NCBI GenBank assembly: GCA_964621905.1
Contig: CAZUNG010000003.1
Location: 216,366-280,365, forward strand
Source of the DNA: an uncultured Ruminococcus sp.
GTDB taxonomy: Bacteria > Bacillota > Clostridia > Lachnospirales > Lachnospiraceae
Reading direction: 5' to 3'
DNA length: 64,000 nucleotides
Shown: positions 28,648 to 53,693 of the stretch, piece by piece
How the letters are laid out: each line of letters starts with the position of its first letter
How positions within the stretch are numbered: the stretch's first letter is position 1
Program-made: the position numbers and the translations under genes
The notes under the pieces: model-generated
Told to the model about the DNA's origin: nothing
Databases searched by the model: none
The model's input: the letters and a program-made list of their open reading frames with translations, nothing else

Positions 28648-29589
28648 ATGCAGAGGATACGCAAACTTTATGTGGAATTTCCCAAAATGGACGATACGGC
28701 GATATCTGTAGTCCCGTGTCTTGTAGACCGGCGGGTAGGTGCACACTGCCACACGTACTATGAATTTGTAGTCATTACAAAGGGATCCTGTATATTTGAT
28801 TATCGCGGGGCACAATCTCTGCTGATGCCGGGAGATGTATTTTTGATTGAACCGCATCAGGTGCACAGCTATGAGGTGCAGATGACAGCAACTATCATCA
28901 ATTGTCACTTTTTCCCGGAGCCGCTTGGCGCCGAGTGCAGCGAGACACTCAGCCATGCAACGATAAATACTCCTTATGCCAACGAGGATGTAAAACAACA
29001 GTGGGACGAGCTGCTTCGCTATGTAACACTGGGGGACTCGGTGATAGAGGAGGAAAGCAGACGTGTTGGAGTGAATGTACAGGGAGTGATACATTTAAAT
29101 ACGCAGGAAATGAAATATGTGGAACAGCTTCTGGATGGAATGATGGAGGAACAGGATAAAAAAGAGGAAGGGATCGAGTACGTAAAATCAGCTTATCTGC
29201 AGTTGATTTTAGTCTTTTTTAAGCGTGTCAAATCAAGACAACATGAGCAGATGCAGAATTATACAAGCCATAAGAAAAAGCTGATCTATCGTGCGATGAC
29301 TTATATAGAAGAACATCTGACCGAAAAAATAAATGTTTCACAGATCGCAGAGAGTGTTTATCTAAGCCCCAATTATTTCAGGACGACATTCAAAGATGTG
29401 ACGGGACTGTCGCCGATGGAATATCTGAATCGTATGCGTGTTGTGAAATCTCTGGAATATCTGGAAATGGAACAGATAAGTGTGGCGGAAGCGGCAGAGA
29501 AAGTTGGCATATACGATGCCAATTATTTTTCCAGAATGTTCAAGAAGGTCATGGGCTACTCTCCGCGTTATTTTAAAAAGATCAACTGA
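28648..29589 (+). CDS. AraC-family regulator (cupin + double HTH), paralog A
   Basis: HCHTYYEF cupin; LSPNYFRTTFK..TG, GIYDANYFSRMFKK..GYSP. Confidence 0.93.
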   Translation: MQRIRKLYVEFPKMDDTAISVVPCLVDRRVGAHCHTYYEFVVITKGSCIFDYRGAQSLLMPGDVFLIEPHQVHSYEVQMTATIINCHFFPEPLGAECSETLSHATINTPYANEDVKQQWDELLRYVTLGDSVIEEESRRVGVNVQGVIHLNTQEMKYVEQLLDGMMEEQDKKEEGIEYVKSAYLQLILVFFKRVKSRQHEQMQNYTSHKKKLIYRAMTYIEEHLTEKINVSQIAESVYLSPNYFRTTFKDVTGLSPMEYLNRMRVVKSLEYLEMEQISVAEAAEKVGIYDANYFSRMFKKVMGYSPRYFKKIN

Positions 29590-29707
29590 TGTTACCAATG
29601 ATTTATGCTAGTATGACTGTGCCGTGTGCTACCAGAATTTCAAATCTCCATGCTATACTGTAATCATCAAAAATGATGATTTGGCAGTCAGAAATAGCAG
29701 GAGGTTG

Positions 29708-30931
29708 ATGATGATGACGAATAAAGAGCGCGAATTTCGTACATTGAGCTTTTCAAATGAGGGACTTGACAGAGGCGCAAAACAGGAAACATTTGAACCG
29801 TGGGATCTGACGGTTTCGGATTGGGAAAAAGAAGGGCTGACAACAGATTTTAACAAAAAACTGAAGGTGCCGATTGTCCCCACAGAGGTCGGCTATATCA
29901 AAAAAGATGAGCCCGTTGAATGGGTTGACCATTATTATATGACAATGCTTGCAGATCCGATTTTTGATCTGGAAAAAACGCTGGGGTATGACCCGGTACT
30001 TCGTATGGCTTTTCGAATTCCATTTCTCAGTTATGATGAGGAAATGATGGAGGATACGGATGAGTATACGGTAAAAAGAGATATTGACGGCTGGATCAGA
30101 AAATATTATAAAGGACGTGATCTTTTTACTGCCGTTCAGCCGGTGGTTTCTGATGAGGAATCCTGGGAACGCCACAAAGACCATACGTTAAAGGCTTATA
30201 AAAAATACTGTACAGATGAAGCGATGCATGCCGCATATGATAAGTATCATGCGATCAGCGAGAGCGGGGAATATCCGATTCGCTTTCGGCTGATGGGATT
30301 TTTCTGGAGTATCCGTGATCTGATGGACAACGAACCGATGCTGTATGCATGGTATGATTACCCGGAAATGATTGAGGACATTCATAGATTTCAGCTGAAT
30401 CTTTATAAAGAACAGATGGATAAGATATTAAAAATTGTGAAGCCTGAAGTACTGTTTTTTGAAGAAGATTTAAGTGGAAAGAATGGTCCGATGATCTCCC
30501 CGGATACCTTTGATGAGTTTTTAAGGCCGTGTTATGAAGAGATCATTCCATTTCTCAGAGAACGCGGAGTGCAGAATATATTCGTGGACACGGACGGCGA
30601 CTTTACAAAGCTGATTCCGAATTTTACATCATCGGGTGTCGATGGTTTTTTGCCGGTGGACGTGAATGCCGGTGTTGATATCGTGGATGTAAGAAGACGT
30701 TTTCCGGATGTTAAATTTATTGGAGGATTCAATAAACTGGAAATCCTGAAAGGTCCGGAGGCAATAGACCGCGAATTCAAGCGCCTGGAACCTGTGATCC
30801 GGCAGGGAGGCTATCTGTGCGGGATCGATCATCAGGCGGCTCCGGGCACTCCCTATGCATACTATCAGTATTATATAAAACGGCTGGGTGAAGTCATGGC
30901 GGCCTGCCGCGGAGAACACATCACGAAATAA
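29708..30931 (+). CDS. Uroporphyrinogen decarboxylase/MtaA-fold protein 1
   Basis: EDLSGKNGPMISP, VDTDGD, G.DGFLPVDVNAGVD, FIGGFNK, GGYLCGIDH; GGAGG RBS before ATG 29708. Confidence 0.8.
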   Translation: MMMTNKEREFRTLSFSNEGLDRGAKQETFEPWDLTVSDWEKEGLTTDFNKKLKVPIVPTEVGYIKKDEPVEWVDHYYMTMLADPIFDLEKTLGYDPVLRMAFRIPFLSYDEEMMEDTDEYTVKRDIDGWIRKYYKGRDLFTAVQPVVSDEESWERHKDHTLKAYKKYCTDEAMHAAYDKYHAISESGEYPIRFRLMGFFWSIRDLMDNEPMLYAWYDYPEMIEDIHRFQLNLYKEQMDKILKIVKPEVLFFEEDLSGKNGPMISPDTFDEFLRPCYEEIIPFLRERGVQNIFVDTDGDFTKLIPNFTSSGVDGFLPVDVNAGVDIVDVRRRFPDVKFIGGFNKLEILKGPEAIDREFKRLEPVIRQGGYLCGIDHQAAPGTPYAYYQYYIKRLGEVMAACRGEHITK

Positions 30932-30966
30932 GCCTGCAATACTCTCTTTTCATAATGTTATAAATC

Positions 30967-31016
30967 AAAACACGGGGACTGTAAAATGAGAAATCATTTT
31001 GCGGTCCCTGTGTTTT
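30967..31016 (+). terminator. Long hairpin terminator with GAAA loop
   Basis: AAAACACGGGGACTGTAAAATGA-GAAA-TCATTTTGCGGTCCCTGTGTTTT. Confidence 0.8.
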
Positions 31017-31071
31017 CTTATGTTATAACTGGAATATGGGTAATGAAAAGCGAAAATCTCTTATGTACAAT
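31008..31071 (+). promoter_or_regulatory. 41-bp shared motif copy 1 with promoter (sulfatase 1)
   Basis: CTGTGTTTTCTTATGTTATAACTGGAATATGGGTAATGAAA-17-TACAAT. Confidence 0.75.
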
Positions 31072-31152
31072 CTAATTATAGAATGCAGTCCTAATGCATC
31101 AGGGGTCAAAAAGATCTTTTGACGCCAACATTATCACAATATGGAGGTACAT

Positions 31153-32487
31153 ATGGAAACAAAAAAAGCAAATATTCTGTTTTTCTTTACGGATCAGCAG
31201 CGCTGGGACACTTGTGGATGTATGAATCCAAACCTGGATCTGACACCGAATCTGGACCAACTGGCAAAAGACGGGGCGTGTTTTAGAAAAGCGTATACGT
31301 GTCAGCCCGTCTGCGGACCGGCGCGTGCCTGCCTTCAGTCTGGAATGTATGCCACGGAGACTGGAAATTTTCACAACCTGCGCAGACTGGAACCGAATTC
31401 CTGCACACCACTTGCTGAATATCTGAACAGAGCCGGATACAAAACGGGGTACGTCGGCAAACTTCATCTGGCACAAACGACAGACGGACCGGTGCCGCCC
31501 GAATTACACTATGGATATAAGGACTACTGGCGTGCGATGGATGTTGTAGAATGGGGTTCCCTGCCGTATGAGGGCGGGCTGTATGACGAAAACGGAACAT
31601 TAGTCCCTTATAAAAACCAGTATCGGGTAGATTTCACGACAGATTTGCTGCTGGAATTCCTGGAACAGCAAAAAGATTCTGATGATCCGTTTTTTACCAT
31701 GATGTCATTGATCGAACCGCATCACCAGAACTGCATGTACCGGTATGTGGCGCCGGACGGATATGCAGATAAGTATCGGGATGCATGGGTTCCCGGGGAT
31801 CTGGCCGTACGTCGGGGAGAGGGGGACTGGGAAAAGAATCTTCCGGACTATTATGGCATGATTCGCAGGATTGATGAAAATCTTGGGCGTGTGGTGGAGG
31901 CTCTGAAGAAAAATGGTCAGTATGAAAATACATATCTCATATTCAGCAGCGATCACGGCAGTCATTTCCGGACAAGAAACAGTGAATACAAGCGGGCGTG
32001 CCATGATGCGTGTACGCATATTCCTATGGTGATTCATGGACCAGGCGTAAAGCCCGGGTATCAGGAACATGAAAAACTTGCGAGTCTGATTGACATACCG
32101 GCTACGATTCTGGATATGGCGGGGGTGGAAAAACCCCGGCATTATCGTGGAAGATCGCTTCTTCCTCTGATGAAAGGGGAAGATGTTGAGTGGAGAGAGG
32201 AGGTATTTATCCAGATATCAGAATCACAGGTGGGGCGGGCAGTCTGCGACGGGAAATATAAATACTCTGTTTCTGCCCCCGGGCTTGACGGATTTGCAGT
32301 GTGTGCGGCAGATTTGTACCGGGAAGAGTTTTTGTATGATCTGGAAGCGGATCCGGATGAAAATGTGAATCTGGTAACGGATGCAGATTACGAAGAGGTG
32401 AGAAAGAAACTACGAAGAACCTTGCTTAAATATATAGAGGAAGTGGAACATTATACGCCGGATATTCTTCCGGCTGAACACAGGTAA
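31153..32487 (+). CDS. Cytoplasmic formylglycine-dependent (Cys-type) sulfatase 1
   Basis: FFTDQQR, CQPVCGPARACLQSG (CxPxR), YVGKLHL, FSSDHG; no signal peptide. Confidence 0.9.
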   Translation: METKKANILFFFTDQQRWDTCGCMNPNLDLTPNLDQLAKDGACFRKAYTCQPVCGPARACLQSGMYATETGNFHNLRRLEPNSCTPLAEYLNRAGYKTGYVGKLHLAQTTDGPVPPELHYGYKDYWRAMDVVEWGSLPYEGGLYDENGTLVPYKNQYRVDFTTDLLLEFLEQQKDSDDPFFTMMSLIEPHHQNCMYRYVAPDGYADKYRDAWVPGDLAVRRGEGDWEKNLPDYYGMIRRIDENLGRVVEALKKNGQYENTYLIFSSDHGSHFRTRNSEYKRACHDACTHIPMVIHGPGVKPGYQEHEKLASLIDIPATILDMAGVEKPRHYRGRSLLPLMKGEDVEWREEVFIQISESQVGRAVCDGKYKYSVSAPGLDGFAVCAADLYREEFLYDLEADPDENVNLVTDADYEEVRKKLRRTLLKYIEEVEHYTPDILPAEHR

Positions 32488-32767: not shown

Positions 32768-34291
32768 ATGAAGACAGTATTTATTTTATGTGATACCGTA
32801 AACCGCCGGATGCTGGATCTCTATAACAGCAGCCGGGAAGAGACGGCACTGATGCCGAATCTAAACCGCCTGGCAAAAAGAGGGATGGTTTTTGACAATC
32901 ACTGGTGCGGCAGTGCGCCCTGCATGCCTGCACGCAAGGACATCATGACGGGGCGTCTGAATTTTCTGGAAAAGCCGTGGGGGGCGATTGAACCTTATGA
33001 ACAGACATTACAGACGGTATTGGCTGAGAAAAATGTGCATACAATGATGTTCAGTGACCATTCTCACTATGTGATTCCGGGAGGTGAGAATTATACAAAG
33101 GGTTTTACCGCATGGGAAGTGTTCAGAGGTCAGGAAGGAGATCCCTGGTGTGTGACTCCCGACAAGGGGGGGATAAAAAAGGATGTCAGGCCAAGTGACT
33201 TCAAGGGTGAGTATTCGGTGTCAGAAGAAGCAAATCGCCGAAGATTAAAAACGGAGGACGATTACCCGAGTGTAAAAACATTGAGCAGTGCTGCGAGATG
33301 GCTGGAAGAAAATCATAACGCAGACAACTTTATGCTGTGGGCGGAGGCGTTCGATCCGCATGAGCCATATGATGTTCCGGAAAAATATCTGGATCTCTAT
33401 GAAAAAGATTATACCGGTTTTGACGCAAAACACCCGGATTATCAGCCAAATATTTTCACGGAGGAGGAGACTAAGCATCTAAAGAACCGCTGCAGGGCAT
33501 TGATGACCATGACGGATACCCATATTGGTGAGATTCTGGACGTACTGGATGCGCACGATATGTGGAAGGATACGATGGTGATATTTACGACGGACCATGG
33601 TTTCCATCTGGGAGAACACGGATATATGGCGAAGAACTATATGGCGCCGTACAATGAAGTGTTCCATATTCCGCTTATTGTCTGTGCACCTGGATGTAAG
33701 GCGGGGCGCAGTCAGGCGCTGACACAGAACATCGATGTGATGCCGACGGTGCTGGAATACTTTGGCGCGGATCGTAAACTGCATTATCCGCTGCACGGGA
33801 AAAGCCTGATGCCAATTCTTTCGGGGAAAGTAACGCAGATGAGAAGTGATACGATCTTTGGATATTTCGGAAAACAGGTTGGCTATACTGACGGGACTTA
33901 TGTGTATATCAAAGCCGCCAGAGATGACAGCAATCGGCCGCTGAATGTTTATACGGCTGTGCCCAGTATCCTGAGGCAGTATTTTGGAGCGGATGATGCA
34001 GTAAATGCAGAGGATTATGACAAAATTGAAATGGGAAGATTCTTATCCTGGACGAATTATCCGGTATATAAAATACCCGCGGATATTATTAACTTCAGAA
34101 ATCCATCGCAGGAATTCTCTTGCCGGTCCAGGTACAATCAGGAAAATCTTCTGTTTGATCTGACAGAGGATTACCATCAGGAACATCCTATTACGGATGA
34201 AAAACTGGAACGCAAATATCAGGAACAGTTGAAACGATGTATGCAGGAATATGATGCACCGGCAGAACAGTATGAACGTCTGGGTATTTAA
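32768..34291 (+). CDS. Cytoplasmic formylglycine-dependent (Cys-type) sulfatase 2
   Basis: ILCDT, PCMPARKDIMTG (CxPxR), FDPHEP, FTTDHGFHLGEHG, FHIPLIV; no signal peptide. Confidence 0.9.
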   Translation: MKTVFILCDTVNRRMLDLYNSSREETALMPNLNRLAKRGMVFDNHWCGSAPCMPARKDIMTGRLNFLEKPWGAIEPYEQTLQTVLAEKNVHTMMFSDHSHYVIPGGENYTKGFTAWEVFRGQEGDPWCVTPDKGGIKKDVRPSDFKGEYSVSEEANRRRLKTEDDYPSVKTLSSAARWLEENHNADNFMLWAEAFDPHEPYDVPEKYLDLYEKDYTGFDAKHPDYQPNIFTEEETKHLKNRCRALMTMTDTHIGEILDVLDAHDMWKDTMVIFTTDHGFHLGEHGYMAKNYMAPYNEVFHIPLIVCAPGCKAGRSQALTQNIDVMPTVLEYFGADRKLHYPLHGKSLMPILSGKVTQMRSDTIFGYFGKQVGYTDGTYVYIKAARDDSNRPLNVYTAVPSILRQYFGADDAVNAEDYDKIEMGRFLSWTNYPVYKIPADIINFRNPSQEFSCRSRYNQENLLFDLTEDYHQEHPITDEKLERKYQEQLKRCMQEYDAPAEQYERLGI

Positions 34292-34356: not shown

Positions 34357-35370
34357 ATGACATCCAGAGAGCTTGCGGTGTTGGCAGGAGTGTCGCAGTC
34401 TACAGTTTCCAGAGTGTTAAATAATTGCGAAAACGTTTCTGACAGAAAACGGCAGAAAGTGCTGGAGCTTGCCCGTATTTATAATTTTGAACTGGACGGC
34501 AATGCCAGAAGTCTGAAAACACAAAAATTGAACAGAGTTGGTGTTTTCTTATCCGATTATTTTGTCGGCTTTGACCAGAACCTGTTCTGGTCAAATATCT
34601 ACTCAAGGCTGCACACAGAACTGCAGAGCAGAGGGCTTACCGCACTTCCGGTATATGCATATAACAGTTCAACGAAGATAATGTTAAACCGTCTGATCGG
34701 ACAGAGGCAGATGGACAGAATTATTATGGTTGCCACGGACAAGTTTTATGACGAAGACAGCCTGCAGATCCTGTTTGAAAAGGAAATTCCTTTTGTCTGT
34801 ATCTATGACAGAGCGGATGATGATCATTACTATGAGAAAGAAGAGGTCAATATCATAGCGCTTGATTTTAAAGGTGCGGGACGGATTGCAGCTGAATTTC
34901 TGTATCAGCAGGGACATCGCCGGATCGCGCTGCAGGTCAATCCGAGGGACCGTTCCAACAACAGCAGATGCAGAGGGTTTCGCAGGGCACTGCCCCGGGA
35001 CTGTACGGTTCAGGAAGTCAGTACGGGTAAAGGGATCAGTTCCATTACCTTTGAGGGGGGATATGCGGCGGCAAAAGCCCATATCGACACCTTTCATGAA
35101 TGTACAGCTGTTCTTGCGGCGAATGACGCCGCGGCCATCGGGATGATTGCTGCTCTGCAGGAACATGGATTTGATGTGCCCGGTGATATCAGCGTCATCG
35201 GAATCAATGATATTCCGATGTGTAAATGGTGGCGGCCTCATCTGACAACCGTTGCATTTGATGTCCAGGAGATTATCGACCACACGATCGACTTGCTGAT
35301 CGAAAGACGGGAAGAGACAAGACAGATTATCATAACACCCAAACTGGTAGTCAGAGAGTCTGTAAAATGA
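34357..35370 (+). CDS. LacI-family transcriptional regulator
   Basis: LAGVSQSTVSRVLN HTH; NDAAAIG, VPGDISVIG, P.LTTV. Confidence 0.93.
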   Translation: MTSRELAVLAGVSQSTVSRVLNNCENVSDRKRQKVLELARIYNFELDGNARSLKTQKLNRVGVFLSDYFVGFDQNLFWSNIYSRLHTELQSRGLTALPVYAYNSSTKIMLNRLIGQRQMDRIIMVATDKFYDEDSLQILFEKEIPFVCIYDRADDDHYYEKEEVNIIALDFKGAGRIAAEFLYQQGHRRIALQVNPRDRSNNSRCRGFRRALPRDCTVQEVSTGKGISSITFEGGYAAAKAHIDTFHECTAVLAANDAAAIGMIAALQEHGFDVPGDISVIGINDIPMCKWWRPHLTTVAFDVQEIIDHTIDLLIERREETRQIIITPKLVVRESVK

Positions 35371-35446: not shown

Positions 35447-36592
35447 ATGAAAAGTATGAAAAAAGTAATCAGTTTATTGTTGGTTTTGACAATGGCAGCA
35501 GCATTGTGTGCATGCGGAGGGAAAAAGGAAGAGGCCAAAGAGGAAAGTAAGGATACCCAAGAGACAGAAGCGGCAGATACTTCTTCGGAAGACAAAAAAG
35601 ACGGGGAACTGGCGCCCAGTGGGGATACCGTCAACATTGCCGCGTTGATCAACACAGATGGGCTTGCTGTGTGGTATGCAGATAAAATGGGGTATTTTGA
35701 AGAACTGGGTTTAAAAACAAATATCACCTATTTTGTCAATGGAACACTGGAAAATGAAGCGTTGTCCGCAGGAGAAGCAGAGATCGGCTTTAACGGATTT
35801 GCGGGGGTGTATGCGCTGGCTACCGGAGATTATACAATGGTTGCAGACTGCGATGACGGAAAAGGGCTTGCTGTTTATGTAAATCCGGACTGTCCGGTGG
35901 TTGATGTACAGGGAGAGTACAGCAAAGAAAACCCGGATGTGTACGGTAATGCCGAGACGGCAGCGGGACTGAGCTTCGGTGTGACACTGGGAACCGTACA
36001 GCAGATCATGGTGGACTCTTATTATGCAAACCTTGGACAGAAAGATTACAATCTTGTGAGCATGGATGCAGCTTCCTGCTATAATGCACTGATCAGCGGA
36101 GAGGTTGACGGAGCGGCACTGACGATGAATTACTGTGCGGCAGCGGAAGCGGCAGGCATGGTATGTCTGGGTACCTACGAGGGAATCACCGGTGTCGGAA
36201 CCGGGTCAACGGTCATTGTTCCGAACGATTATATGGAGAGCAACCGCGATGATATTGTGCTGTCCTTGAAAGCAGTCTTTAAGGCGCTGGATGAAATTCA
36301 GAATGATGAACAGCTGGAATTTGATCAGGGCATGGAGTTCTTCAAAGAGATGGGAACGGAATACACAGAAGACGAAATGTGGACAGAAATCAATGTTCGT
36401 GATCTTTACTCCTATGAGAAGCTGAAAGATCTCAAATATGGAAATCATGTGGTATTCTCGGCGATTGAGCTGACCAAACTGGGGCTGCTGGACGAAGGCA
36501 GTGCAGAAACAGTAGCAAAGAGTATCAATAAAGACCTCATGGAAGAGGCTACGGGTGTTTCGATTACGGTTGAAATGCCGGAGGGATACTAA
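35447..36592 (+). CDS. ABC substrate-binding lipoprotein, TauA/SsuA/NMT1-like
   Basis: Lipobox LCACG; ADKMGYFEELGL, F.NG..ENEAL.AG; precedes Tau-type permeases and ATPases. Confidence 0.75.
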   Translation: MKSMKKVISLLLVLTMAAALCACGGKKEEAKEESKDTQETEAADTSSEDKKDGELAPSGDTVNIAALINTDGLAVWYADKMGYFEELGLKTNITYFVNGTLENEALSAGEAEIGFNGFAGVYALATGDYTMVADCDDGKGLAVYVNPDCPVVDVQGEYSKENPDVYGNAETAAGLSFGVTLGTVQQIMVDSYYANLGQKDYNLVSMDAASCYNALISGEVDGAALTMNYCAAAEAAGMVCLGTYEGITGVGTGSTVIVPNDYMESNRDDIVLSLKAVFKALDEIQNDEQLEFDQGMEFFKEMGTEYTEDEMWTEINVRDLYSYEKLKDLKYGNHVVFSAIELTKLGLLDEGSAETVAKSINKDLMEEATGVSITVEMPEGY

Positions 36593-40628: not shown

Positions 40629-40629
40629 A

Positions 40630-40898: not shown

Positions 40899-40924
40899 AA
40901 GTTGGATCTGCGTTTTGTTTATCT

Positions 40925-46452: not shown

Positions 46453-46453
46453 T

Positions 46454-47362
46454 ATGAAAAGAAAATATGCAGACCTTTTATTGATATTTATTACTGCCAT
46501 ATGGGGACTGTCTTTTCCGATCATACGGAATTCTTTAAATTATATACCGGAACTCACCTATTTGTTTTATCGTTTTCTGGCGGCGAGTATCGTACTGGCG
46601 GTGATTTTTCACCGCAAAATCAGAAGCATAACGAGAACGGTATTGTGGAAAGGCGCATTAATGGGTGTCTCCATATCCGGAGCACTCGGGTTTACGGTTA
46701 TTGCACTTCGCTATACCACGGCTGCAAATGTGGCTTTTATCACGGGAATGAATATTGTGATTGTTCCGTTGCTTTCCGGCTTAATGCTAAAGAAAAAAGT
46801 TGACTGGGTCAAAAAGGGAAGTGTTCTCATTGCCATGATTGGGCTTTTTCTGATCTCGGGCGGTGTGGAGCTGAAGTTTAACCGGGGAGATTTTCTGGCC
46901 TTTCTGTGTGCATTATGCATTTCACTTCAAATCATTTTGACAGATCTTTTTGCGGCTGATGAAGATCCTGTGATCCTGGGATGTCTGCAAGTCAATGTGG
47001 CGGCCGTCATTTACTTTTTTTTAAGCCTGATCAGTGGAATCGGGTTTGCCTTTGAAGTGAAAGGCATTGTTGTAACCACGATCCTCGTAACAGGGATTGC
47101 AGGCACGGCATTGGCATTTGTGGGGCAGACTTTTGTTCAAAAGTTCACGACGCCGTCACACGTGGCCATCATTTTTGTTTTAGAGCCTGTCTTTGGAGCA
47201 CTGTTTGCACTGTGGATTCCAAGGCTGGACGGGACAACGGAGACAATTTCTGTTATCAAAGGAGCGGGGTGTGTGCTGTTGGTTATATCCATGCTTTTTA
47301 CCGAGATCTTTGGTGCGAAAGCTGACGCCAGGAGCAAACTGCACGATGAAATTGCAAGTTGA
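46454..47362 (+). CDS. EamA/DMT-family transporter
   Basis: IWGLSF start, duplicated EamA halves, LEPVFGALFA; starts 1 nt after the NRPS stop. Confidence 0.9.
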   Translation: MKRKYADLLLIFITAIWGLSFPIIRNSLNYIPELTYLFYRFLAASIVLAVIFHRKIRSITRTVLWKGALMGVSISGALGFTVIALRYTTAANVAFITGMNIVIVPLLSGLMLKKKVDWVKKGSVLIAMIGLFLISGGVELKFNRGDFLAFLCALCISLQIILTDLFAADEDPVILGCLQVNVAAVIYFFLSLISGIGFAFEVKGIVVTTILVTGIAGTALAFVGQTFVQKFTTPSHVAIIFVLEPVFGALFALWIPRLDGTTETISVIKGAGCVLLVISMLFTEIFGAKADARSKLHDEIAS

Positions 47363-47387
47363 CAAAATGAATCTGCTACTGTATAAT
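47359..47387 (+). promoter_or_regulatory. sigmaA promoter of amt-glnK
   Basis: TTGACA-17-TATAAT. Confidence 0.9.
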
Positions 47388-47427
47388 ACGCCTGAAGACA
47401 AACATAGTACCCCGGAAAGGGGATTAG

Positions 47428-47464
47428 AGGCAATGGTGCCGTAAATGACACCATTGCCTTTTTT
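47428..47464 (+). terminator. Leader terminator (attenuator) upstream of amt with an ANTAR-like sub-hairpin
   Basis: AGGCAATGGTG-CCGTAAATGA-CACCATTGCCT-TTTTT about 35 nt after the promoter; alternative GGC-AATGGT-GCC hairpin. Confidence 0.75.
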
Positions 47465-47649
47465 GTGTAGAAGAGGAGGTAAGATAGGAAAATGAATGAT
47501 ATGATGGCGGCTGCCTATATCAGCTTTGGGCTGCCGGGATGTCAGGGAGTGCGAAGCAGTCCTTCTTGCAAACTCCCGTAAAATGAAGATTTCAATAATA
47601 AACAATGGCGGTGTAACTGACGCTGCCTGGATGAAAAGGAGGTTTTTTT

Positions 47650-48891
47650 ATGAATACCGGGGACACAGGCTTTATGTTAATTTGTACTGCATTTGTATTT
47701 CTTATGACACCGGCACTGGCATTTTTTTATGGAGGTCTTGTGAGACGGAAAAATGTCGTGAATACCATGATGGTTTGCGTGGCAATTATGGGATTATCTG
47801 TGGTAATGTGGACGTTATTCGGATATTCACTTTCGTTTGGAGGAAATCATGCAGGGATAATCGGGGACTTCCGCTGGCTTGGACTAAACGGTGTGGGAAT
47901 GGATGCAGGACCGTATGCAGAGACGATTCCTCATCTGGTCTACTGTGCATTTCAGATGATGTTCGCAATGATCACACCGGCATTGATTACCGGGGCAGTT
48001 GTGGGAAGAATGAGATTTAAAGCATTGTTTTTCTTTATCGCACTCTGGTCGGTGGCAGTCTATTATCCGCTGGCGCATATGGTGTGGGGAGAAGGCGGTT
48101 TGCTGGCAGCGATTGGTTCTGTGGATTTCGCAGGCGGAGATGTGGTTCATATCAGTTCCGGCATTACGGCACTGACCTTGGCCATTATTTTGGGAAGACG
48201 GCGTGGGTATGAGGTGATGACATACCGCGTACATAATATTCCTTTCGTTGTGCTTGGAGCGACGCTTCTCTGGTTTGGATGGTTCGGATTTAATGCGGGC
48301 AGTGCGCTTGCAGCAGATGGTCTGGCAGCACATGCATTTATGACCTCTGCAATTGCAGCCGCATCGGCGCTGTTATCATGGATGCTGATTGATGTGATCC
48401 GGAACGGGAAACCGACGCTTGTCGGCGCATCAACAGGACTGGTAGTGGGACTGGTGGCAATCACGCCGGGTGCGGGCTTCGTGCCGGTCTGGTCATCCTT
48501 CATCATCGGAGCGCTGGTCAGCCCGATCTGCTACTTTGGAGTGGCACTGGTTAAGAGAAAATTGAAAATAGATGATGCATTGGATGCGTTTGGATGCCAT
48601 GGAATCGGCGGGATTTGGGGTGGAATTGCCACCGGAATCTTTGCGAAGAGATCCATCAATGGTGTGGCTCGCTGGGACGGTCTTATCTATGGCGATTATC
48701 ATCTGTTCACGGCACAGATCATAGGGATCGCTGTTACGATTGGTGTTGCGATTGTTGGAACTCTCATTTGTGTGGCAATCGTTAAAGTGTTTACACCGCT
48801 GCGGGTAGAGGTAAAAGACGAACAGATTGGTTTGGACAATTCCCAGCATGGAGAAAACGCATATCCATGTTTCAACGGACTGGATCAGTAG
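47650..48891 (+). CDS. amt: Ammonium transporter
   Basis: FFYGGLVRRKN, FQMMFAMITPALITG, DFAGG.VVH, WFGWFGFNAGS, DDALDAFGCHG. Confidence 0.96.
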   Translation: MNTGDTGFMLICTAFVFLMTPALAFFYGGLVRRKNVVNTMMVCVAIMGLSVVMWTLFGYSLSFGGNHAGIIGDFRWLGLNGVGMDAGPYAETIPHLVYCAFQMMFAMITPALITGAVVGRMRFKALFFFIALWSVAVYYPLAHMVWGEGGLLAAIGSVDFAGGDVVHISSGITALTLAIILGRRRGYEVMTYRVHNIPFVVLGATLLWFGWFGFNAGSALAADGLAAHAFMTSAIAAASALLSWMLIDVIRNGKPTLVGASTGLVVGLVAITPGAGFVPVWSSFIIGALVSPICYFGVALVKRKLKIDDALDAFGCHGIGGIWGGIATGIFAKRSINGVARWDGLIYGDYHLFTAQIIGIAVTIGVAIVGTLICVAIVKVFTPLRVEVKDEQIGLDNSQHGENAYPCFNGLDQ

Positions 48892-48902
48892 GAGGAAGAG
48901 TC

Positions 48903-49247
48903 ATGATGATCAAGGTAGAAGCAATTGTGAGAGAAGAGAAATTTGAGGATATTAAACAGGCGCTGCAGGATATTGAAGTGAACGGAATGACAGTATCCCA
49001 AGTGATGGGTTGCGGTGTGCAAAGAGGGTACAAGGAGATTGTCAGAGGAATGGAAGTAGATATTCAGATGCGTCCGAAGATCAAGTTTGAGATTGTAGTG
49101 TCTTCTGAAGAGTGGGAGGCCAAGACGGTCGAAGCAATCCAGAAAGCAGCGTTTACCGGCGAGATGGGGGACGGAAAAATTTTCAGTTATGAAATCCGTT
49201 CCGCAATGAAAATCCGTACGAAAGAGACCGGGTATGATGCAATTTAA
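48903..49247 (+). CDS. glnK: PII nitrogen regulator (GlnB/GlnK)
   Basis: KVEAIVR, GCGVQRG, PKIKFEIV, TGEMGDGKIF; directly after amt. Confidence 0.92.
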   Translation: MMIKVEAIVREEKFEDIKQALQDIEVNGMTVSQVMGCGVQRGYKEIVRGMEVDIQMRPKIKFEIVVSSEEWEAKTVEAIQKAAFTGEMGDGKIFSYEIRSAMKIRTKETGYDAI

Positions 49248-49441
49248 GGACCGCAGTGAATGCGTTTATCTTCGGAACGATGGAAATTTAGGCCCGTGAA
49301 GTGGGGCCGGATAATCGCCGGGCGGCCGGTACGGTGTGAACGGCAGTAAAAAGAGAACAGGAATTACATAGAATTTTTTGTGTGAAATGTTATAATAAAC
49401 ACAAACGGCTTTTATTATGACATCAATACGGAGGATTTTTT

Positions 49442-50461
49442 ATGCGGGGTTGGGATGACCGAAAGGTATATGTGGCGAGGCACTGCTATCAGGACTGCTT
49501 CTGGGGGCTTGGATTTCGGGACGGATATCTGGAATTCCCTGTGCGGGATACTTCTGCAATTACGGTGCTGCCATGGGAGGATAATATCTCTGTGAAACCG
49601 CACCGGCACTCTTACTATGAATTTGCACTGGTTACAAAAGGGTCTTGTGTTCACAGCTACAAAGGAGTGAAAGCACCGCTGGTGCCGGGGGATGTCTTCT
49701 TGATAGAACCCCATCAGGAGCACAGTTATGAGATTCAGGCATCGGTTCATATTATAAACTGCAATTTTATCGCAGAGGGACTGGGTGATGACTGCAATGA
49801 GGTGATTTCGGGAGCCTCAAAGCCAAGAACAGGCACCCGCATGGATGAAGATACAAAGCGGCACTGGGATGAACTGCTTCGTTATGTTTCGCTGGAGGAG
49901 CAGGAAATCAGTCAGGAAGTGCGCCAGTCGTATCTGAACACGCAGGGTATCATCCATCTGGAGAGTAAGGAGATGGAAGAGGTAGAGCGCCTGCTGTGGA
50001 TTATGGTCGATGAGCAGGAGAAAAATGAACTGAATTCGGAGTACGCCAAAGCAGCGTATCTGCAGTTGATTCTGATCCTGTTTCAGCGTGTACAGGTTCA
50101 GAAAAACCAGAGGATCGGCAGGTATTCCAGTCAGAAGAAAGCGATGATCTATGATGCACTTGCTTACATTGAGGAACACCTGGATGAAAAAATTGATTTT
50201 GAAGAGATTTCCCAAAATTCGTTTCTGAGTCCCAGTTACTTTCGGGCGATTTTTAAAGATGTGACCGGGCTGACGCCGATTGAGTACCTGAACCGTATGC
50301 GGATCGTCAAGTCGCTGGAGTATCTGGAGATGGAGCAGCTCTCCATCACGGATGCTGCGGCCAGAGTCGGAATCTATGATTCCAACTATTATTCGAGACT
50401 GTTTAAAAAAGTGATGGGATACTCGCCCCGCTATTTTAAAAGTATCCGGGAAAAGGCATAG
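49442..50461 (+). CDS. AraC-family regulator, paralog B of 28648-29589
   Basis: HRHSYYEF cupin; C-terminus nearly identical to paralog A (KSLEYLEMEQ...FKKVMGYSPRYFK). Confidence 0.92.
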   Translation: MRGWDDRKVYVARHCYQDCFWGLGFRDGYLEFPVRDTSAITVLPWEDNISVKPHRHSYYEFALVTKGSCVHSYKGVKAPLVPGDVFLIEPHQEHSYEIQASVHIINCNFIAEGLGDDCNEVISGASKPRTGTRMDEDTKRHWDELLRYVSLEEQEISQEVRQSYLNTQGIIHLESKEMEEVERLLWIMVDEQEKNELNSEYAKAAYLQLILILFQRVQVQKNQRIGRYSSQKKAMIYDALAYIEEHLDEKIDFEEISQNSFLSPSYFRAIFKDVTGLTPIEYLNRMRIVKSLEYLEMEQLSITDAAARVGIYDSNYYSRLFKKVMGYSPRYFKSIREKA

Positions 50462-50470
50462 GTCAGTTTA

Positions 50471-51991
50471 TCACTGCAGAGAATCGTCGATCATAAAAGA
50501 AATCATCAGATGTGTCAGCTGCTCTCTGTTGTTAAAATCAATTCCCGTCAGTTCGATGATCTTATTGAGGCGGTAAATACACGTTGTCCGGTGGACAAAC
50601 AGTGATTCTGCCGTGTGGGAAATATTAAACTTATATTCGGTCAGTGCTTTCAGTGTCAGAATCAGACAACTGTGCGGGTGAAGGGCATCGTATTTTTTTA
50701 ATATGCTGATCGCCGGATGACAGAGTTCGGATGCAGGGTACTGGGACACACACTGAGATTTCAGATAATCGTACACAAAATCCGAAAAATAGTAATACCA
50801 GAACGACGGTGCCCTCTGTTCCCCGACCGAAAGAGCAGTCTCAGCTTCGCTGCAGAAGGTCTGAATGTTAAAAATGTCGGTAAAGGAATTGCTGATACCT
50901 GTTTTGCATAACGTTTCCCTCAAAAACAGTTTGAGATCATCCGGCAGCTGTTCTCCTCCCTGTGACAGTGACAAATTCCGCACACAGAAGATTCCGGCTG
51001 CATTGCTGATAAAGCAGCTGTTTTTAAGAAGGTTTTCAACCTGTATCCGCACAAAATCAAAAGAGATCGTAAAATGCTCCTCCTCCAGAAATTTAAACTT
51101 GAGCACCTGATAGCAATGATTTTTCTCCCAGCCATAGGAGGAGAGCACCGCAGTATATCTGTGCATATCTTCAACAGACCCCTGTATCATATGATTTACG
51201 ATACTGTACAGGCTGTGTCTGCTGTCGGAATAGGGCGAGGAGCTGCTCTCGACGGAAAAGGCGTGGGTGATAGAGTTGCCGAGTGCTTCGATCACTGCAA
51301 GTTTTCCGCTGAAATATATGTGTTTTTTGAACTTTGCCACCAGTCTGGCACAATATCTGCCATTTAAAAAAATATTGATATAATAAAGAAGCAGATTACG
51401 GTTTCCGGACGGATAGTTCTGAACTCCGTGGAGGGAGAAGGCTTCTTTAAATTCTGTTTCCTGATTATATTCCGTCACCTGTTCCCAGGTCATGCTGGAG
51501 GTTTGCGGAAATTCAGACACTTTGTAGAAATTTTTCGTTGTGACTAGGTAGTGATAATCGGCATCGACAAGGGCCATTTCCATATCGGTTAACCGCGAGG
51601 CCACATCAAACAATTCTTTTGCATACTGCAGACTGGACCGTGTCAGCAGCAGGAGATCATGAAAGCGGTCAAAATCTGTCCAGATTTCCTGAAGCTGATT
51701 TGCCAGTTCAAAAACAGACATTTCTTCATTGACGTAGATGACGTCACAGTCTTCATGAAAGAGCGCTTTCTGCTCTTGCTTTTTTTGACATAAAAAAGTA
51801 TATCCGCTGCGGTCTTCCAAACGGACAAACACAGGGTAAGAGATGATCTGCAGGTATTGTGTGCTGCGCTCGGAAGCAGACGGATAAAATAAAAATCCTT
51901 TGAGTGGAATGTCTGAAAAAGCATGGTCCGGGCGCTCCATACATAGTGTTGATGACATTGTTTCATATATCAGACTTGCGGTAAGTTCCAT
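50471..51991 (-). CDS. PucR/CdaR-family transcriptional regulator
   Basis: C-terminal YKFNISHTAESLFVHRTTCIYRLNKIIELTG HTH; GGAGG RBS; TTGACA-17-TACATT promoter at 52019-52047. Confidence 0.85.
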   Translation of the reverse strand: MELTASLIYETMSSTLCMERPDHAFSDIPLKGFLFYPSASERSTQYLQIISYPVFVRLEDRSGYTFLCQKKQEQKALFHEDCDVIYVNEEMSVFELANQLQEIWTDFDRFHDLLLLTRSSLQYAKELFDVASRLTDMEMALVDADYHYLVTTKNFYKVSEFPQTSSMTWEQVTEYNQETEFKEAFSLHGVQNYPSGNRNLLLYYINIFLNGRYCARLVAKFKKHIYFSGKLAVIEALGNSITHAFSVESSSSPYSDSRHSLYSIVNHMIQGSVEDMHRYTAVLSSYGWEKNHCYQVLKFKFLEEEHFTISFDFVRIQVENLLKNSCFISNAAGIFCVRNLSLSQGGEQLPDDLKLFLRETLCKTGISNSFTDIFNIQTFCSEAETALSVGEQRAPSFWYYYFSDFVYDYLKSQCVSQYPASELCHPAISILKKYDALHPHSCLILTLKALTEYKFNISHTAESLFVHRTTCIYRLNKIIELTGIDFNNREQLTHLMISFMIDDSLQ

Positions 51992-52131
51992 AAACACCTC
52001 CATTAGCTGTTACTACAAAATGTAGCAAAAACATTTGTAAATGTCAATACTCTGAGAGTTAATCCGGATGAAACCAAATGCTATAATAAGAACAGAAAAT
52101 GGAAACGGGTATCAGAAAGGATGTGCTGTGT

Positions 52132-53253
52132 ATGGAAAGAAAAAAGTTTGATAACAGTGAGCTGGATATTATCGACTATAAGAAATGTGGAGCCATGGCG
52201 ATTTTTAAGCCCCTGTTCGGAGGTAATGTCCCTCCGGAACCGGTCTATAACACACCGGTTACACCGAAAGAAAACTGGAAACTGGCGGTGGCCGGCAAAA
52301 AGCCTTACTGGATCCCGCGGGGAGGATGGGGGTTTTGTGACATTAATGTGTTCAGACCCAGAATTCATCCTGACAATGTAGTGACACATATTATCTGTGA
52401 CGGGGAGGAGGATTACCCGTATACTTCCAATACCATGACGAGTGACTGGTTTGGACTGGACTGGGTATTTGTACCTCATGTGGGCGGTGCCACAGTCAAA
52501 CCGGGGCATCCGAAGGTTCTGGATGCTTCCTGCTGGGAAGATTACGTTGCGCTTCCAAACCTGGATACTATGGACTTCGCTGAATGCGGAGAGAAAAACA
52601 GGGAGTTCTTAAATACTCCGAAGATGAATCAGCTGGGAATCCTGTCAGGGTTCTGGGAAAGACTGATGTCTTTGATGGATGTGGAAGGAGCAGCGGTTGC
52701 GCTGGTTGACGAGGAACAAAAGGCAGGGGTACACAGGCTGTTCGACGCGCTGTGCTGTCTGTACGACGAATATATTGAACGTATGGTAACATACTGCGAT
52801 ATCGACTGCGTACTGGTCCATGATGACTGGGGAACACAGAACGGTCCGTTTTTTTCGCTGGAGACGTGTATGGAAATGATCGCGCCTTATCTGAAGCGAA
52901 TGGTGGAATCGGCACACAGGCGCGGACTGTTGTTTGAACTGCACAGCTGCGGGAAAATGGAAAAACTGGTGCCCGCTATTCTGGAGGCAAAGGTGGATAT
53001 CTGGTGTCCGCAAAGTATCAACGATTTTGACTCGCTGGTTGAGACATATAAAGATGAACCGCTGATTTTTGGAAAACAGGGAATTGAAGTGCCGCAGGGG
53101 CTCGGTGATGAAGAATACCGCAGGCTTGGCAAAGAGTGGGCGGCAAAATATATTGATCATCATGTGTGCACAGCCACCCGGGGGATTCCTGAGGCATTTA
53201 TACAGGGGGTTTATGAGTATAGCCGGACGGCTTACCAGAGCGCGGAAGACTAA
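52132..53253 (+). CDS. Uroporphyrinogen decarboxylase/MtaA-fold protein 3
   Basis: HDDWGTQNGPFFS, ELHSCGK, W.PQ.IND; divergent from the PucR regulator. Confidence 0.8.
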   Translation: MERKKFDNSELDIIDYKKCGAMAIFKPLFGGNVPPEPVYNTPVTPKENWKLAVAGKKPYWIPRGGWGFCDINVFRPRIHPDNVVTHIICDGEEDYPYTSNTMTSDWFGLDWVFVPHVGGATVKPGHPKVLDASCWEDYVALPNLDTMDFAECGEKNREFLNTPKMNQLGILSGFWERLMSLMDVEGAAVALVDEEQKAGVHRLFDALCCLYDEYIERMVTYCDIDCVLVHDDWGTQNGPFFSLETCMEMIAPYLKRMVESAHRRGLLFELHSCGKMEKLVPAILEAKVDIWCPQSINDFDSLVETYKDEPLIFGKQGIEVPQGLGDEEYRRLGKEWAAKYIDHHVCTATRGIPEAFIQGVYEYSRTAYQSAED

Positions 53254-53335
53254 AGATTGTGCAAAAAGTACTGCTTTTTCATATGCGGGGGTACCGTTTT
53301 TATGATATGCTTTTCATAAATGGAGGCGAGCCGAT

Positions 53336-53693
53336 ATGACGCATATGAATCTTTATAATATGAAACTGAATCAGATCTGATTTGGATGACTACGCACATC
53401 AGAGGGGGGCCTTTATATCACCAGCCGTCTTCGATGCAGTCATTGCTCGGGGACTAAAAAAGATTGTAAGTGCGGTGGAAGCAAATGGAATGAAATATCT
53501 CCAGCACTGCTGCGGGCAGGTACAGGCGGTGCTTGACAATCTGTACGCTGTCGGCGTACGGAGGATTGATAATCCTTACAGCTCTGAAGCGGATATCCGC
53601 AGGGAAGTCCGCAGATGTATTGATGAGTATGCTCCCGGGAAAAAATTGGGCATTGTTGTTGATGAATCAATGGAATTAAAAAAAGGTTTTTAG
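53336..53693 (+). pseudogene. Internally deleted UroD/MtaA-fold remnant
   Basis: DDYAHQRGAFISPAVF...LQHCCGQ aligns with DDWGTQNGPFFS...LHSCGK of the previous gene; the RBS-linked ATG 53336 closes after 14 codons. Confidence 0.65.

What the first reader, a model, noticed from the sequence alone, without database searches (positions are those of the whole stretch)
28648..53693. Catabolic island combining UroD/MtaA-fold proteins, sulfatases, a Tau-type importer and TauE, with no corrinoid partners
Seen: three intact UroD-fold genes plus a remnant, two signal-less CxPxR sulfatases, a five-gene TauABC-like importer, TauE, amt-glnK and five regulators. No corrinoid protein (DxHxxG), RamA/RACE activator or anSME radical-SAM maturase is present. 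Known: MtaA-fold methyltransferases need a corrinoid protein, and Cys-type sulfatases in anaerobes usually need anSME. Inference: a pathway that imports a small sulfated molecule, desulfates it in the cytoplasm, exports the anion, and uses UroD-fold enzymes in a step that may not be methyl transfer (for example decarboxylation). The substrate cannot be read from the sequence.
Basis: partly seen in the sequence, partly recalled or inferred. Interest (0 to 1): 0.75.

Follow-up and report, generated by a model that had tools for sequence, protein, structure and literature searches.

The report
Sulfate-ester operon with MtaA-like partner

Summary
That includes a third AraC regulator on the minus strand. 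The whole 64-kb window holds no corrinoid protein, radical-SAM maturase or cobalamin riboswitch.

The region is a mosaic rather than one island.
- **Core unit (31141-40628):** Sulf1, Sulf2, LacI, a five-gene NitT/TauT-type importer and TauE, bracketed by two terminator-like hairpins.
- **AraC1-UroD1:** a separate cassette that elsewhere sits with sugar transporters, and next to urease genes in a 92%-identical relative.
- **amt-glnK:** lies in a segment absent from the R. gauvreauii-type relative.

The link between sulfatases and UroD-fold proteins is nevertheless real. In three other gut lineages one tight operon reads importer, sulfatase, UroD-fold, sulfatases, TauE, anSME. In a fourth, a 44%-identical UroD2 homologue sits between the Sulf1 and Sulf2 orthologues.

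UroD2 is closest to the methyltransferase MtaA and has a conserved His-x-His…Glu site. This favours metal-dependent alkyl transfer over decarboxylation. The missing anSME and corrinoid genes are probably elsewhere in the genome. The substrate remains unknown; the regulators suggest something carbohydrate-like.

The parts
28648..29589 (+). AraC1 regulator (cupin + AraC HTH), paired with UroD1
   Evidence: Pfam. An AraC1-like gene neighbours UroD1 homologues in 32 of 80 loci. It is 56% identical to AraC2.
29708..30931 (+). UroD1: a divergent UroD-fold protein with DTDG where MtaA has HxCG. A separate cassette, probably not part of the sulfatase unit.
   Evidence: Family context: CUT2 sugar permease in 34/80 loci, sulfatase in 3/80, corrinoid protein in 3/80.
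30969..31014 (+). Intrinsic-terminator-like hairpin (20-bp stem plus T run) separating UroD1 from Sulf1
31141..32487 (+). Sulf1: cytoplasmic Cys-type (CGPAR) formylglycine sulfatase
   Evidence: C58, P60, A61 and R62 are invariant in the family. Orthologues lie in compact operons.
32768..34291 (+). Sulf2: cytoplasmic Cys-type (CMPAR) sulfatase
   Evidence: A 70%-identical orthologue lies in L091.
34357..35370 (+). LacI-family regulator
   Evidence: Conserved at the same position in L006 and L175.
35447..36592 (+). Lipoprotein substrate-binding protein, NMT1/SsuA-like (NitT/TauT family)
   Evidence: It is 30% identical to the L091 binding protein.
36718..37521 (+). ABC permease 1
   Evidence: 52% identical to its L091 counterpart.
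37521..38306 (+). ABC permease 2 (start 37515 or 37521; the ORF as listed starts at 37395)
   Evidence: The L175 orthologue is 261 aa.
38279..39064 (+). ABC ATPase 1
   Evidence: 69% identical to its L091 counterpart.
39080..39826 (+). ABC ATPase 2
   Evidence: 76% identical to its L091 counterpart.
39834..40628 (+). TauE/SafE-family anion exporter
   Evidence: Pfam 101 bits. 47% identical to the TauE of L091.
40615..40875 (.). Decayed remnant of a DUF305 gene that is intact in the R. gauvreauii-type locus L175
   Evidence: stop codons in all frames.
40881..40916 (+). Terminator-like hairpin closing the Sulf1-to-TauE unit
40925..41782 (-). AraC3 regulator, divergent from UroD2
   Evidence: The L175 orthologue is 285 aa.
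41937..43082 (+). UroD2: MtaA-like UroD-fold protein with conserved H271-C-H273…E295. The likely enzymatic partner of the sulfatases.
43219..46452 (+). NRPS-like protein (N-terminal region, adenylation, thiolation, thioesterase). A neighbour of UroD2, conserved only within the genus as far as checked.
46439..47362 (+). EamA-family transporter
47308..49409 (+). amt-glnK segment (amt 47650-48891, glnK 48867-49247) with its own 12/12 consensus promoter at 47359-47387. Absent from L175, so not part of the system.
49442..50461 (+). AraC2 regulator, paralogue of AraC1
50471..52003 (-). PucR/CdaR-family regulator, divergent from UroD3
52099..53253 (+). UroD3: UroD-fold protein with an MtaA-type H-S-C-G motif
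   Evidence: A 91%-identical orthologue lies in L175.
53382..53693 (+). UroD-fold gene fragment (H-C-C-G motif, about 100 aa). The L175 alignment stops upstream of it, at 53252.

Best explanation
The region is a mosaic of separately regulated units in an accessory stretch of a gut Clostridium of the Ruminococcus gauvreauii group.

Its functional core is a sulfate-ester utilisation system. The steps below are marked as shown or inferred.
1. A NitT/TauT-type ABC importer (lipoprotein binding protein, two permeases, two ATPases) takes up a small anionic sulfated compound. This is inferred from the family. The LacI regulator here, and the YesMN-type sensor pairs in the related operons, suggest something carbohydrate-like.
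2. Two cytoplasmic Cys-type formylglycine sulfatases, Sulf1 and Sulf2, remove the sulfate groups. The catalytic motif and the cytoplasmic location are shown. They would be matured by an anSME encoded elsewhere in the genome; this is inferred, because the related operons carry one in cis.
3. TauE exports the released anion (inferred).
4. UroD2 acts on the same substrate. It is a metal-dependent MtaA/MetE-like enzyme transcribed divergently from its own AraC regulator just downstream. The most likely reaction is removal or transfer of a methyl or other alkyl group. It probably uses a corrinoid protein or cobalamin supplied from elsewhere (inferred).

The other genes are neighbours rather than components. 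AraC1-UroD1 is a cassette normally associated with sugar transporters. The PucR-UroD3 pair (with AraC2 upstream), the NRPS-like and EamA genes, and amt-glnK are also separate.
For: The core is one unit:
- Terminator-like hairpins at 30969-31014 and 40881-40916 bracket Sulf1 through TauE. None was called between Sulf1, Sulf2 and LacI.

Conservation as a single operon elsewhere:
- L091, L176/L177 and L178 read: binding protein, permease, permease, ATPase, ATPase, a 510-aa sulfatase, a 367-aa UroD-fold gene, further sulfatases including the Sulf1 orthologue, TauE, a radical-SAM/SPASM gene, histidine kinase, response regulator. In L091 and L176 a Sulf2 orthologue is among those sulfatases.
- The Sulf1 orthologues are 64-69% identical. 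In L091 the ATPases are 69% and 76% identical, and Sulf2 is 70% identical.

The UroD link:
- The 367-aa UroD-fold gene has gaps of only 3-28 bp to the sulfatase genes on either side.
- It is homologous to the UroD2 family over 334 aligned columns (hhalign probability 98.5%, E = 2.6e-15).
- L173 reads Sulf1-like (68%), UroD2-like (44%), Sulf2-like, with gaps of 17 and 60 bp.
- L059 joins the same ATPases (60% and 69%), two sulfatases, an anSME, AraC with a UroD1-like gene, and AraC with a UroD3-like gene.
- Six of 80 metagenome loci anchored on the Sulf1 family hold a UroD-fold gene. At least two of these lie directly beside the sulfatase, and in one the UroD-fold gene is followed by a B12-binding protein.

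UroD2 chemistry:
- The only PDB hit of the family profile is MtaA 4ay7 (E = 9e-10). In that alignment HCHG lines up with MtaA's HICG, and PVEP with SVEE.
- H271, H273, E295 and C236 are invariant in 35 homologues. About 113 of 120 full-length family representatives carry HxHG.
- The best fold match is MtaA (TM 0.64/0.71).

Passengers:
- See for UroD1, and for amt-glnK.
Against: - No corrinoid protein lies in cis in the window or in any of the five sulfatase-embedded arrangements examined. This is unusual for corrinoid methyltransferase systems.
- UroD2 lacks MtaA's two cysteine ligands: it has His instead of the first Cys, and Ala/Ser at the position of the second. Its NCBIfam MtaA scores are far below the cut-offs, 26-40 bits against 235-400.
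- UroD2 has its own regulator and is followed by the NRPS-like and EamA genes. It could belong to that unit instead.
- The number of independent contexts is small, and nearly all come from metagenome assemblies.
- No usable expression data were found.
- The substrate is unknown.
Confidence: 0.5

Rival explanations
1. The UroD-fold enzymes work with the sulfatases but without any corrinoid, in a reaction that is not methyl transfer, for example a decarboxylation or another metal-assisted step on the desulfated product.
For: - No B12-binding gene lies in the window or in any compact sulfatase operon.
- There is no cobalamin riboswitch in the window.
- Only 3 of 80 UroD1-family loci hold a corrinoid protein.
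- UroD2 has a His/His/Glu set rather than a thiolate-rich zinc site.
- UroD1 has lost the site altogether: it has DTDG and no conserved Cys.
- Foldseek scores HemE decarboxylases almost as high as MtaA.
Against: - HemE models score far below their cut-off: 15.9 bits against 303.
- The UroD2 family profile finds MtaA and no HemE in the PDB.
- The 367-aa operon-embedded form keeps a full H-x-C…E…C pattern.
- Relatives in T. primitia, a Eubacteriales MAG and metagenome locus L117 lie directly beside corrinoid proteins.
- From general knowledge, MtaA-type enzymes can use corrinoid proteins encoded elsewhere.
Confidence: 0.25
2. There is no shared pathway. The UroD-fold genes, the sulfatases and the importer are unrelated operons that happen to lie together in a variable accessory region.
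For: - There are five separate regulators, and a strong terminator-like hairpin follows UroD1.
- The 92%-identical AraC-UroD1 pair sits next to urease genes in another MAG.
- The UroD1 family lies near sulfatases in only 3 of 80 loci.
- amt-glnK is an insertion or deletion relative to L175.
Against: - UroD-fold genes are embedded between sulfatase genes with gaps of 3-60 bp in four independent gene orders.
- L059 combines the same importer, sulfatases, an anSME and two UroD-fold genes.
Confidence: 0.1
3. The module scavenges sulfur rather than feeding catabolism. On this reading it is a Tau/Ssu/Ats-like system that frees sulfate or sulfite from organosulfur compounds when sulfur is scarce, and the UroD-fold genes are irrelevant.
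For: - The binding protein is SsuA/NMT1-like, and the permeases and ATPases are of the NitT/TauT type.
- From general knowledge, Pseudomonas atsRBC-atsA is such a sulfur-starvation system.
Against: - The regulators are LacI here and YesMN-type sensor pairs in the compact operons, not cysteine-regulon types.
- Up to four sulfatases per operon, plus a dedicated exporter (TauE), point to disposal of the anion rather than its assimilation.
- In L091 a GFO/IDH/MocA sugar dehydrogenase gene directly precedes the importer genes.
Confidence: 0.1

Closest known systems
Pseudomonas atsRBC-atsA sulfate-ester uptake and arylsulfatase cluster (from general knowledge; annotation usage seen in PMC4079955)
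   Same: An SsuA/TauA-like binding-protein-dependent ABC importer is encoded next to a formylglycine sulfatase, so a small sulfate ester is imported and cleaved inside the cell.
   Different: - Here the host is an anaerobic Firmicute, with two permease and two ATPase genes.
- The sulfatases are Cys-type. Their orthologues travel with an anSME, a TauE exporter and an MtaA-like UroD-fold gene.
- The regulators are sugar-type rather than sulfur-starvation regulators.
anSME-dependent Cys-type sulfatases of anaerobes (Bacteroides ChuR, Clostridium perfringens anSMEcpe; from general knowledge)
   Same: The sulfatases carry the C-x-P-x-R motif. In the related operons a radical-SAM/SPASM maturase gene sits beside them.
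   Different: The window has no maturase gene. The sulfatases are cytoplasmic and coupled to an ABC importer, not periplasmic and linked to a PUL.
MtaA/MtbA/MtsA soluble corrinoid:coenzyme M methyltransferases, and the MtaA-like 'Mlp' gene clusters of non-methanogens (PMC10418091)
   Same: UroD2 has the UroD-superfamily TIM barrel. MtaA is its best sequence-profile and fold match in the PDB. A metal site lies at the same positions.
   Different: - The ligands are His/His/Glu instead of His/Cys/(Glu)/Cys.
- NCBIfam scores are far below the cut-offs.
- There is no corrinoid protein in cis.
- The genomic partners are sulfatases, which the Mlp paper does not mention (0 occurrences of 'sulfatase').
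UroD-superfamily O-demethylase methyltransferases I (OdmB, VdmB) of anaerobes (cited in PMC10418091)
   Same: These are diverse, substrate-specific UroD-fold paralogues that take a methyl group off an ether substrate. Several paralogues per genome is typical, as here.
   Different: Known systems are encoded together with a corrinoid protein, a second methyltransferase and an activator.
HemE uroporphyrinogen decarboxylase
   Same: The overall fold is the same (Foldseek TM 0.5-0.65).
   Different: The TIGR01464 score is 15.9 bits against a cut-off of 303. The active-site pattern is different. The genes have no haem-biosynthesis context.

Membership tests
MtaA/CmuA-type corrinoid methyltransferase (UroD superfamily) | UroD-type TIM-barrel fold | tested here: met
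   The UroD1 model has pLDDT 94.6 and matches HemE and MtaA at E = 1e-11 to 1e-9. The UroD2 model has pLDDT 91.0 and its top hit is MtaA 4ay7, TM 0.64/0.71.
MtaA/CmuA-type corrinoid methyltransferase (UroD superfamily) | Zinc site His-x-Cys … (Glu) … Cys | tested here: not met
   - UroD1 family: DTDG at the aligned position and no invariant Cys in 74 sequences.
- UroD2 family: H271-x-H273 and E295 are invariant, but Ala/Ser occupies the position of MtaA's second Cys.
- UroD3 and the remnant do have H-x-C-G, but conservation in their family was not tested.
MtaA/CmuA-type corrinoid methyltransferase (UroD superfamily) | Score above curated family cut-offs (TIGR01463, NF040654, PRK06252) | tested here: not met
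   Scores of 15-40 bits against cut-offs of 235-400 for all four UroD-fold ORFs.
MtaA/CmuA-type corrinoid methyltransferase (UroD superfamily) | Cognate corrinoid (B12-binding) protein and activator | tested here: not met
   - None in the 64-kb window and none in L091, L173, L176 or L178.
- Present beside relatives in L002, L090 and L117.
- Presence elsewhere in the genome cannot be tested with these tools.
HemE uroporphyrinogen decarboxylase | Equivalog score (TIGR01464) and haem-pathway context | tested here: not met
   15.9 bits against a cut-off of 303 for UroD2, and no hit for the others. The neighbours are regulators, sulfatases and transporters.
Type I formylglycine sulfatases (S1) | Sulfatase domain with the C/S-x-P-x-R maturation motif | tested here: met
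   Pfam PF00884 E = 1.6e-54 and 7.8e-36. The motifs are CGPAR and CMPAR. C58, P60, A61 and R62 are invariant in 25 Sulf1 homologues.
Type I formylglycine sulfatases (S1) | Maturation enzyme available (anSME for Cys-type in anaerobes) | not testable with these tools
   It is absent from the window. It is present in cis in the orthologous operons L091, L176 and L178, and in L059. The rest of this genome could not be searched.
Type I formylglycine sulfatases (S1) | Assignment to a characterised subfamily or substrate | tested here: inconclusive
   The best PDB relatives are GlcNAc-6-sulfatase 5g2v (1.6e-41) for Sulf1, and uncharacterised sulfatases and choline sulfatases (about 1e-25 to 1e-21) for Sulf2. 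NCBIfam scores are far below the equivalog cut-offs.
NitT/TauT ABC importers (TauABC, SsuABC, AtsRBC) | SsuA/TauA/NMT1-type binding protein with BPD_transp_1 permease and ABC ATPase | tested here: met
   Pfam NMT1 scores 26.9 bits (cut-off 20.5). The permeases and ATPases match clearly. The L091, L176 and L178 orthologues hit NMT1_2 and NMT1. At family level only: TIGR01728 SsuA scores 29 bits against 163.
TauE/SafE anion exporters | PF01925 domain above the cut-off | tested here: met
   101.2 bits against 32.6. The transported anion was not tested.

The most novel reading that the evidence does not exclude
The UroD2 family and its 367-aa sister form may be an unrecognised branch of the UroD superfamily. 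On this reading it is dedicated to sulfate-ester catabolism and removes a methyl or other alkyl group from a sulfated, carbohydrate-like compound under anoxic conditions. It would have no dedicated corrinoid protein of its own. That would make it an anaerobic counterpart of the oxygen-dependent P450 sugar O-demethylases, which act on sugars such as 6-O-methyl-galactose of sulfated algal galactans (PMC6292453).
Probability: 0.12. Interest if true: 0.85.

Novelty: new variant of a known kind. Interest (0 to 1): 0.6.

Why it matters
Cytoplasmic sulfatase systems of gut Firmicutes are much less studied than the periplasmic ones of Bacteroides. In my literature searches I found no paper describing a UroD-superfamily enzyme as a fixed component of a sulfatase operon.

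If the link holds, three things follow:
- It defines a compact set of genes to test: importer, sulfatases, MtaA-like enzyme, TauE and anSME.
- It points to a class of dietary or host compounds that need both desulfation and dealkylation before fermentation.
- It extends the known reactions of the MtaA/MetE-like fold beyond methanogenesis and O-demethylation of aromatics.

It also corrects the picture of the window. Only part of the 25-kb stretch belongs to the system.

Tried and rejected
- **Expression data.** Three pig-gut metatranscriptome runs were laid on 28600-48500. They gave one exact 178-bp contig in Sulf1 and a few short, partly matching pieces, so nothing could be said about co-expression. 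All DNA runs holding the region are metagenomes, not isolates. The rest of the genome therefore could not be searched for anSME or corrinoid genes.
- **Cobalamin riboswitch.** The Rfam scan found none. It found only tRNAs and a T-box.
- **Solved structures by sequence.** A single-sequence PDB search of the three UroD-fold proteins found no meaningful match. The search with the binding protein was also uninformative.
- **Literature.** Searches for UroD plus sulfatase clusters, TauE plus anSME plus sulfatase, and R. gauvreauii plus sulfatase found nothing relevant. The Mlp gene-cluster paper (PMC10418091) was checked and does not mention sulfatases.
- **Plus-strand ORFs 40895-41266 and 41349-41654.** These were rejected as genes. 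They have no Pfam hit and lie antisense to AraC3.
- **UroD-fold gene as an alternative sulfatase maturase.** This was considered and dropped, because the compact operons carry both an anSME and the UroD-fold gene.
- **The 449-aa gene after the L173 trio.** It was checked and showed no similarity to the UroD-fold proteins or the other panel proteins compared.

Full report
**What is in the sequence**

The window has a strong plus-strand gene bias and GC skew. Upstream of the finding lie housekeeping genes: rho, prmC, prfA, a GTPase and nrdD. Downstream lie DUF6110, a P-type ATPase and a sugar ABC cluster.

The finding's coordinates contain 21 real genes and one gene fragment:
- AraC1, UroD1, Sulf1, Sulf2 and LacI;
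- a lipoprotein binding protein, two permeases, two ATPases and TauE;
- AraC3 on the minus strand (40925-41782; fixes the start) and UroD2;
- an NRPS-like A-T-TE protein and EamA;
- amt, glnK and AraC2;
- PucR on the minus strand, UroD3, and a 103-aa UroD fragment.

Both sulfatases carry C-x-P-x-R and start directly in the catalytic domain. No ORF of 60 aa or more in the whole window resembles a B12-binding protein or a radical-SAM/SPASM enzyme. There is no cobalamin riboswitch.

**Whose genome**

UroD2 is 92% identical to a protein that NCBI names from Ruminococcus gauvreauii. A contig encoding exactly that UroD2 protein (L175) aligns with the window at 75-81% nucleotide identity over 32304-47307 and 49410-53252. 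The organism is thus a related species of the same group. The region occurs in gut, pig-gut and bioreactor metagenomes.

**The region is a mosaic**

- *UroD1 is cut off from the sulfatases.* A 20-bp-stem terminator-like hairpin at 30969-31014 follows UroD1 and precedes Sulf1. A second hairpin at 40881-40916 follows TauE.
- *The UroD1 family has a different usual context.* I anchored 80 genome loci on this family. An AraC1-like gene was adjacent in 32 and a CUT2 sugar permease in 34. Sulfatases appeared in only 3, and a corrinoid protein in 3.
- *The closest species-level relative differs.* In a Ruminococcus sp. MAG (UroD1 92% identical), AraC-UroD1 is followed by a urease operon. In Treponema primitia and a Eubacteriales MAG (68-69% identical), the orthologue lies with a CUT2 sugar transporter, a B12-binding corrinoid protein and a second UroD-fold gene. 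UroD1 is therefore a separate cassette.
- *amt-glnK is an indel.* It lies in a segment (47308-49409) that L175 lacks, and it has its own perfect consensus promoter.
- *The NRPS-like and EamA genes* follow UroD2 in L175 as well, but not in the more distant UroD2 context L173.

**The sulfatase-UroD link is nevertheless real**

I looked up homologues of Sulf1. Three further lineages carry one tight operon: L091, L176/L177 and L178, with Sulf1 orthologues 66%, 69% and 64% identical. The gene order is:
- binding protein, two permeases, two ATPases;
- a 510-aa sulfatase, then a 367-aa UroD-fold gene;
- further sulfatases, including the Sulf1 orthologue in all three and a Sulf2 orthologue in L091 and L176;
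- TauE, a radical-SAM/SPASM maturase, and a sensor kinase with an AraC-type response regulator.

In L091 the two ATPases are 69% and 76% identical to the window's, Sulf2 is 70% identical and TauE 47%. The UroD-fold gene lies 17-18 bp after the preceding sulfatase and 3-28 bp before the next one.

A fourth arrangement (L173/L174) reads Sulf1-like (68%), UroD2-like (44% to the window's UroD2), Sulf2-like, with gaps of 17 and 60 bp.

A fifth (L059, a digester Clostridiaceae MAG) joins the same ATPases (60% and 69%), two other sulfatases, an anSME, AraC with a UroD1-like gene and AraC with a UroD3-like gene.

Among 80 environmental loci anchored on more distant Sulf1 relatives (45-53% identical; 0.94 Mb in total), six contain a UroD-fold gene. 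At least two lie directly beside the sulfatase. In one (L117) the UroD-fold gene is immediately followed by a B12-binding protein. Six hold an anSME-like gene. In Mahella australiensis (53% identical), a Sulf1-like gene and a second sulfatase flank a CUT1 sugar transporter and a ROK gene, with no UroD gene.

The 367-aa operon form and the UroD2 family are homologous over their whole length (hhalign probability 98.5%, E = 2.6e-15). The 367-aa form shows only a marginal relation to UroD1 (probability 10.6%). UroD2 is therefore the window's counterpart of the operon-embedded enzyme.

**What kind of enzyme is UroD2**

- The family profile hits only MtaA (4ay7) in the PDB, at E = 9e-10. In that alignment HCHG lines up with MtaA's HICG and PVEP with SVEE. 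MtaA's second cysteine aligns with Ala/Ser.
- H271, H273, E295, C236 and several Arg/Asn residues are invariant in 35 homologues.
- About 113 of 120 full-length representatives carry HxHG.
- The 367-aa form keeps a full H-x-C…E…C pattern.
- The AlphaFold2 model (pLDDT 91) is closest to MtaA (TM 0.64/0.71), with HemE close behind.
- HemE and MtaA equivalog models score far below their cut-offs.

I read this as a metal-dependent MtaA/MetE-like alkyl transferase of a new subtype. It is not a decarboxylase. Neither claim has been tested biochemically.

UroD1 has replaced the site by DTDG with a C-terminal DHQ and has no conserved cysteine. UroD3 and the fragment carry H-x-C-G.

**How it most likely works**

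A small anionic sulfate ester is imported. The cytoplasmic Cys-type sulfatases desulfate it. The anion leaves through TauE. UroD2 carries out a dealkylation or alkyl transfer on the same molecule.

The sugar-type regulators (LacI here, YesMN-type pairs elsewhere), the GFO/IDH/MocA dehydrogenase gene just upstream of the importer genes in L091, and the sugar transporter in Mahella all suggest a carbohydrate-like substrate. This is inference only.

The anSME must be encoded elsewhere in this genome, because its orthologous operons carry one in cis. Whether a corrinoid partner exists elsewhere is open.

**Comparison with known systems**

- The import-plus-sulfatase logic matches the Pseudomonas atsRBC-atsA paradigm (general knowledge).
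- The maturation logic matches anSME-dependent sulfatases of anaerobes (general knowledge).
- The UroD-fold member matches the MtaA-like proteins found outside methanogens (PMC10418091). That paper describes clusters with corrinoid proteins and does not mention sulfatases.
- My searches found no description of a sulfatase operon with an embedded UroD-superfamily gene. These searches cover open-access text only.

**Verdict**

The novelty lies in the conserved coupling of sulfatases with an MtaA-like enzyme, not in the 25-kb "island" as drawn.

Noticed in passing
window 29708-30931; loci L002, L090, L008-L087: The UroD1 family (about 400 aa, 342 relatives found in the genome collection) is highly conserved. 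It replaces MtaA's HxCG with DTDG and usually sits with an AraC regulator and a CUT2 sugar ABC transporter. In T. primitia and a Eubacteriales MAG it lies in an operon with a corrinoid protein and a second UroD-fold gene. This may be a sugar-linked corrinoid methyltransferase system, and it is uncharacterised as far as I could find.
   Followed up: partly
window 43219-47362: A 1077-aa NRPS-like protein (unassigned N-terminal region of about 220 aa, amino-acid adenylation domain, thiolation domain, thioesterase) is followed by an EamA transporter. Both lie directly after UroD2 and are conserved in the R. gauvreauii-type locus L175.
   Followed up: partly
window 47308-49409: amt-glnK lies in a segment missing from L175. 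A perfect TTGACA-17-TATAAT promoter at 47359-47387 precedes it, leaving a leader of about 260 nt before amt.
   Followed up: partly
window 40615-40875: This is a decayed remnant (stop codons in all frames) of a DUF305 gene that is intact between TauE and the AraC regulator in L175.
   Followed up: yes
window 26183-28546: The anaerobic ribonucleotide reductase NrdD carries a C-terminal glutaredoxin/thioredoxin-like domain (residues about 711-785).
   Followed up: no
window 6528-7076, 10257-12129: A cluster of six tRNA genes, one more tRNA gene at 12050-12129, and a T-box leader (11692-11939, minus strand) lying at the 5' end of a PLP-dependent enzyme gene (ORF 10257-11726, minus strand).
   Followed up: no
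window 7173-10196: A 1007-aa protein with papain-type cysteine protease, lectin-like and fibronectin type III domains.
   Followed up: no
window 13221-16466 and 56500-62570: Two sugar or inositol-type clusters (LacI, GFO/IDH/MocA dehydrogenase, a xylose-isomerase-like TIM barrel, CUT2-type ABC transporter). They resemble the genes that accompany UroD1 homologues in other genomes.
   Followed up: no
window 49442-50461 versus 28648-29589: AraC2 is a 56%-identical paralogue of AraC1, but no UroD1-like gene lies next to it. The next genes are PucR (minus strand) and UroD3.
   Followed up: partly
L059 3919-6174: A 751-aa DUF3604 protein lies between the two sulfatases in the digester Clostridiaceae version of the cluster.
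   Followed up: no
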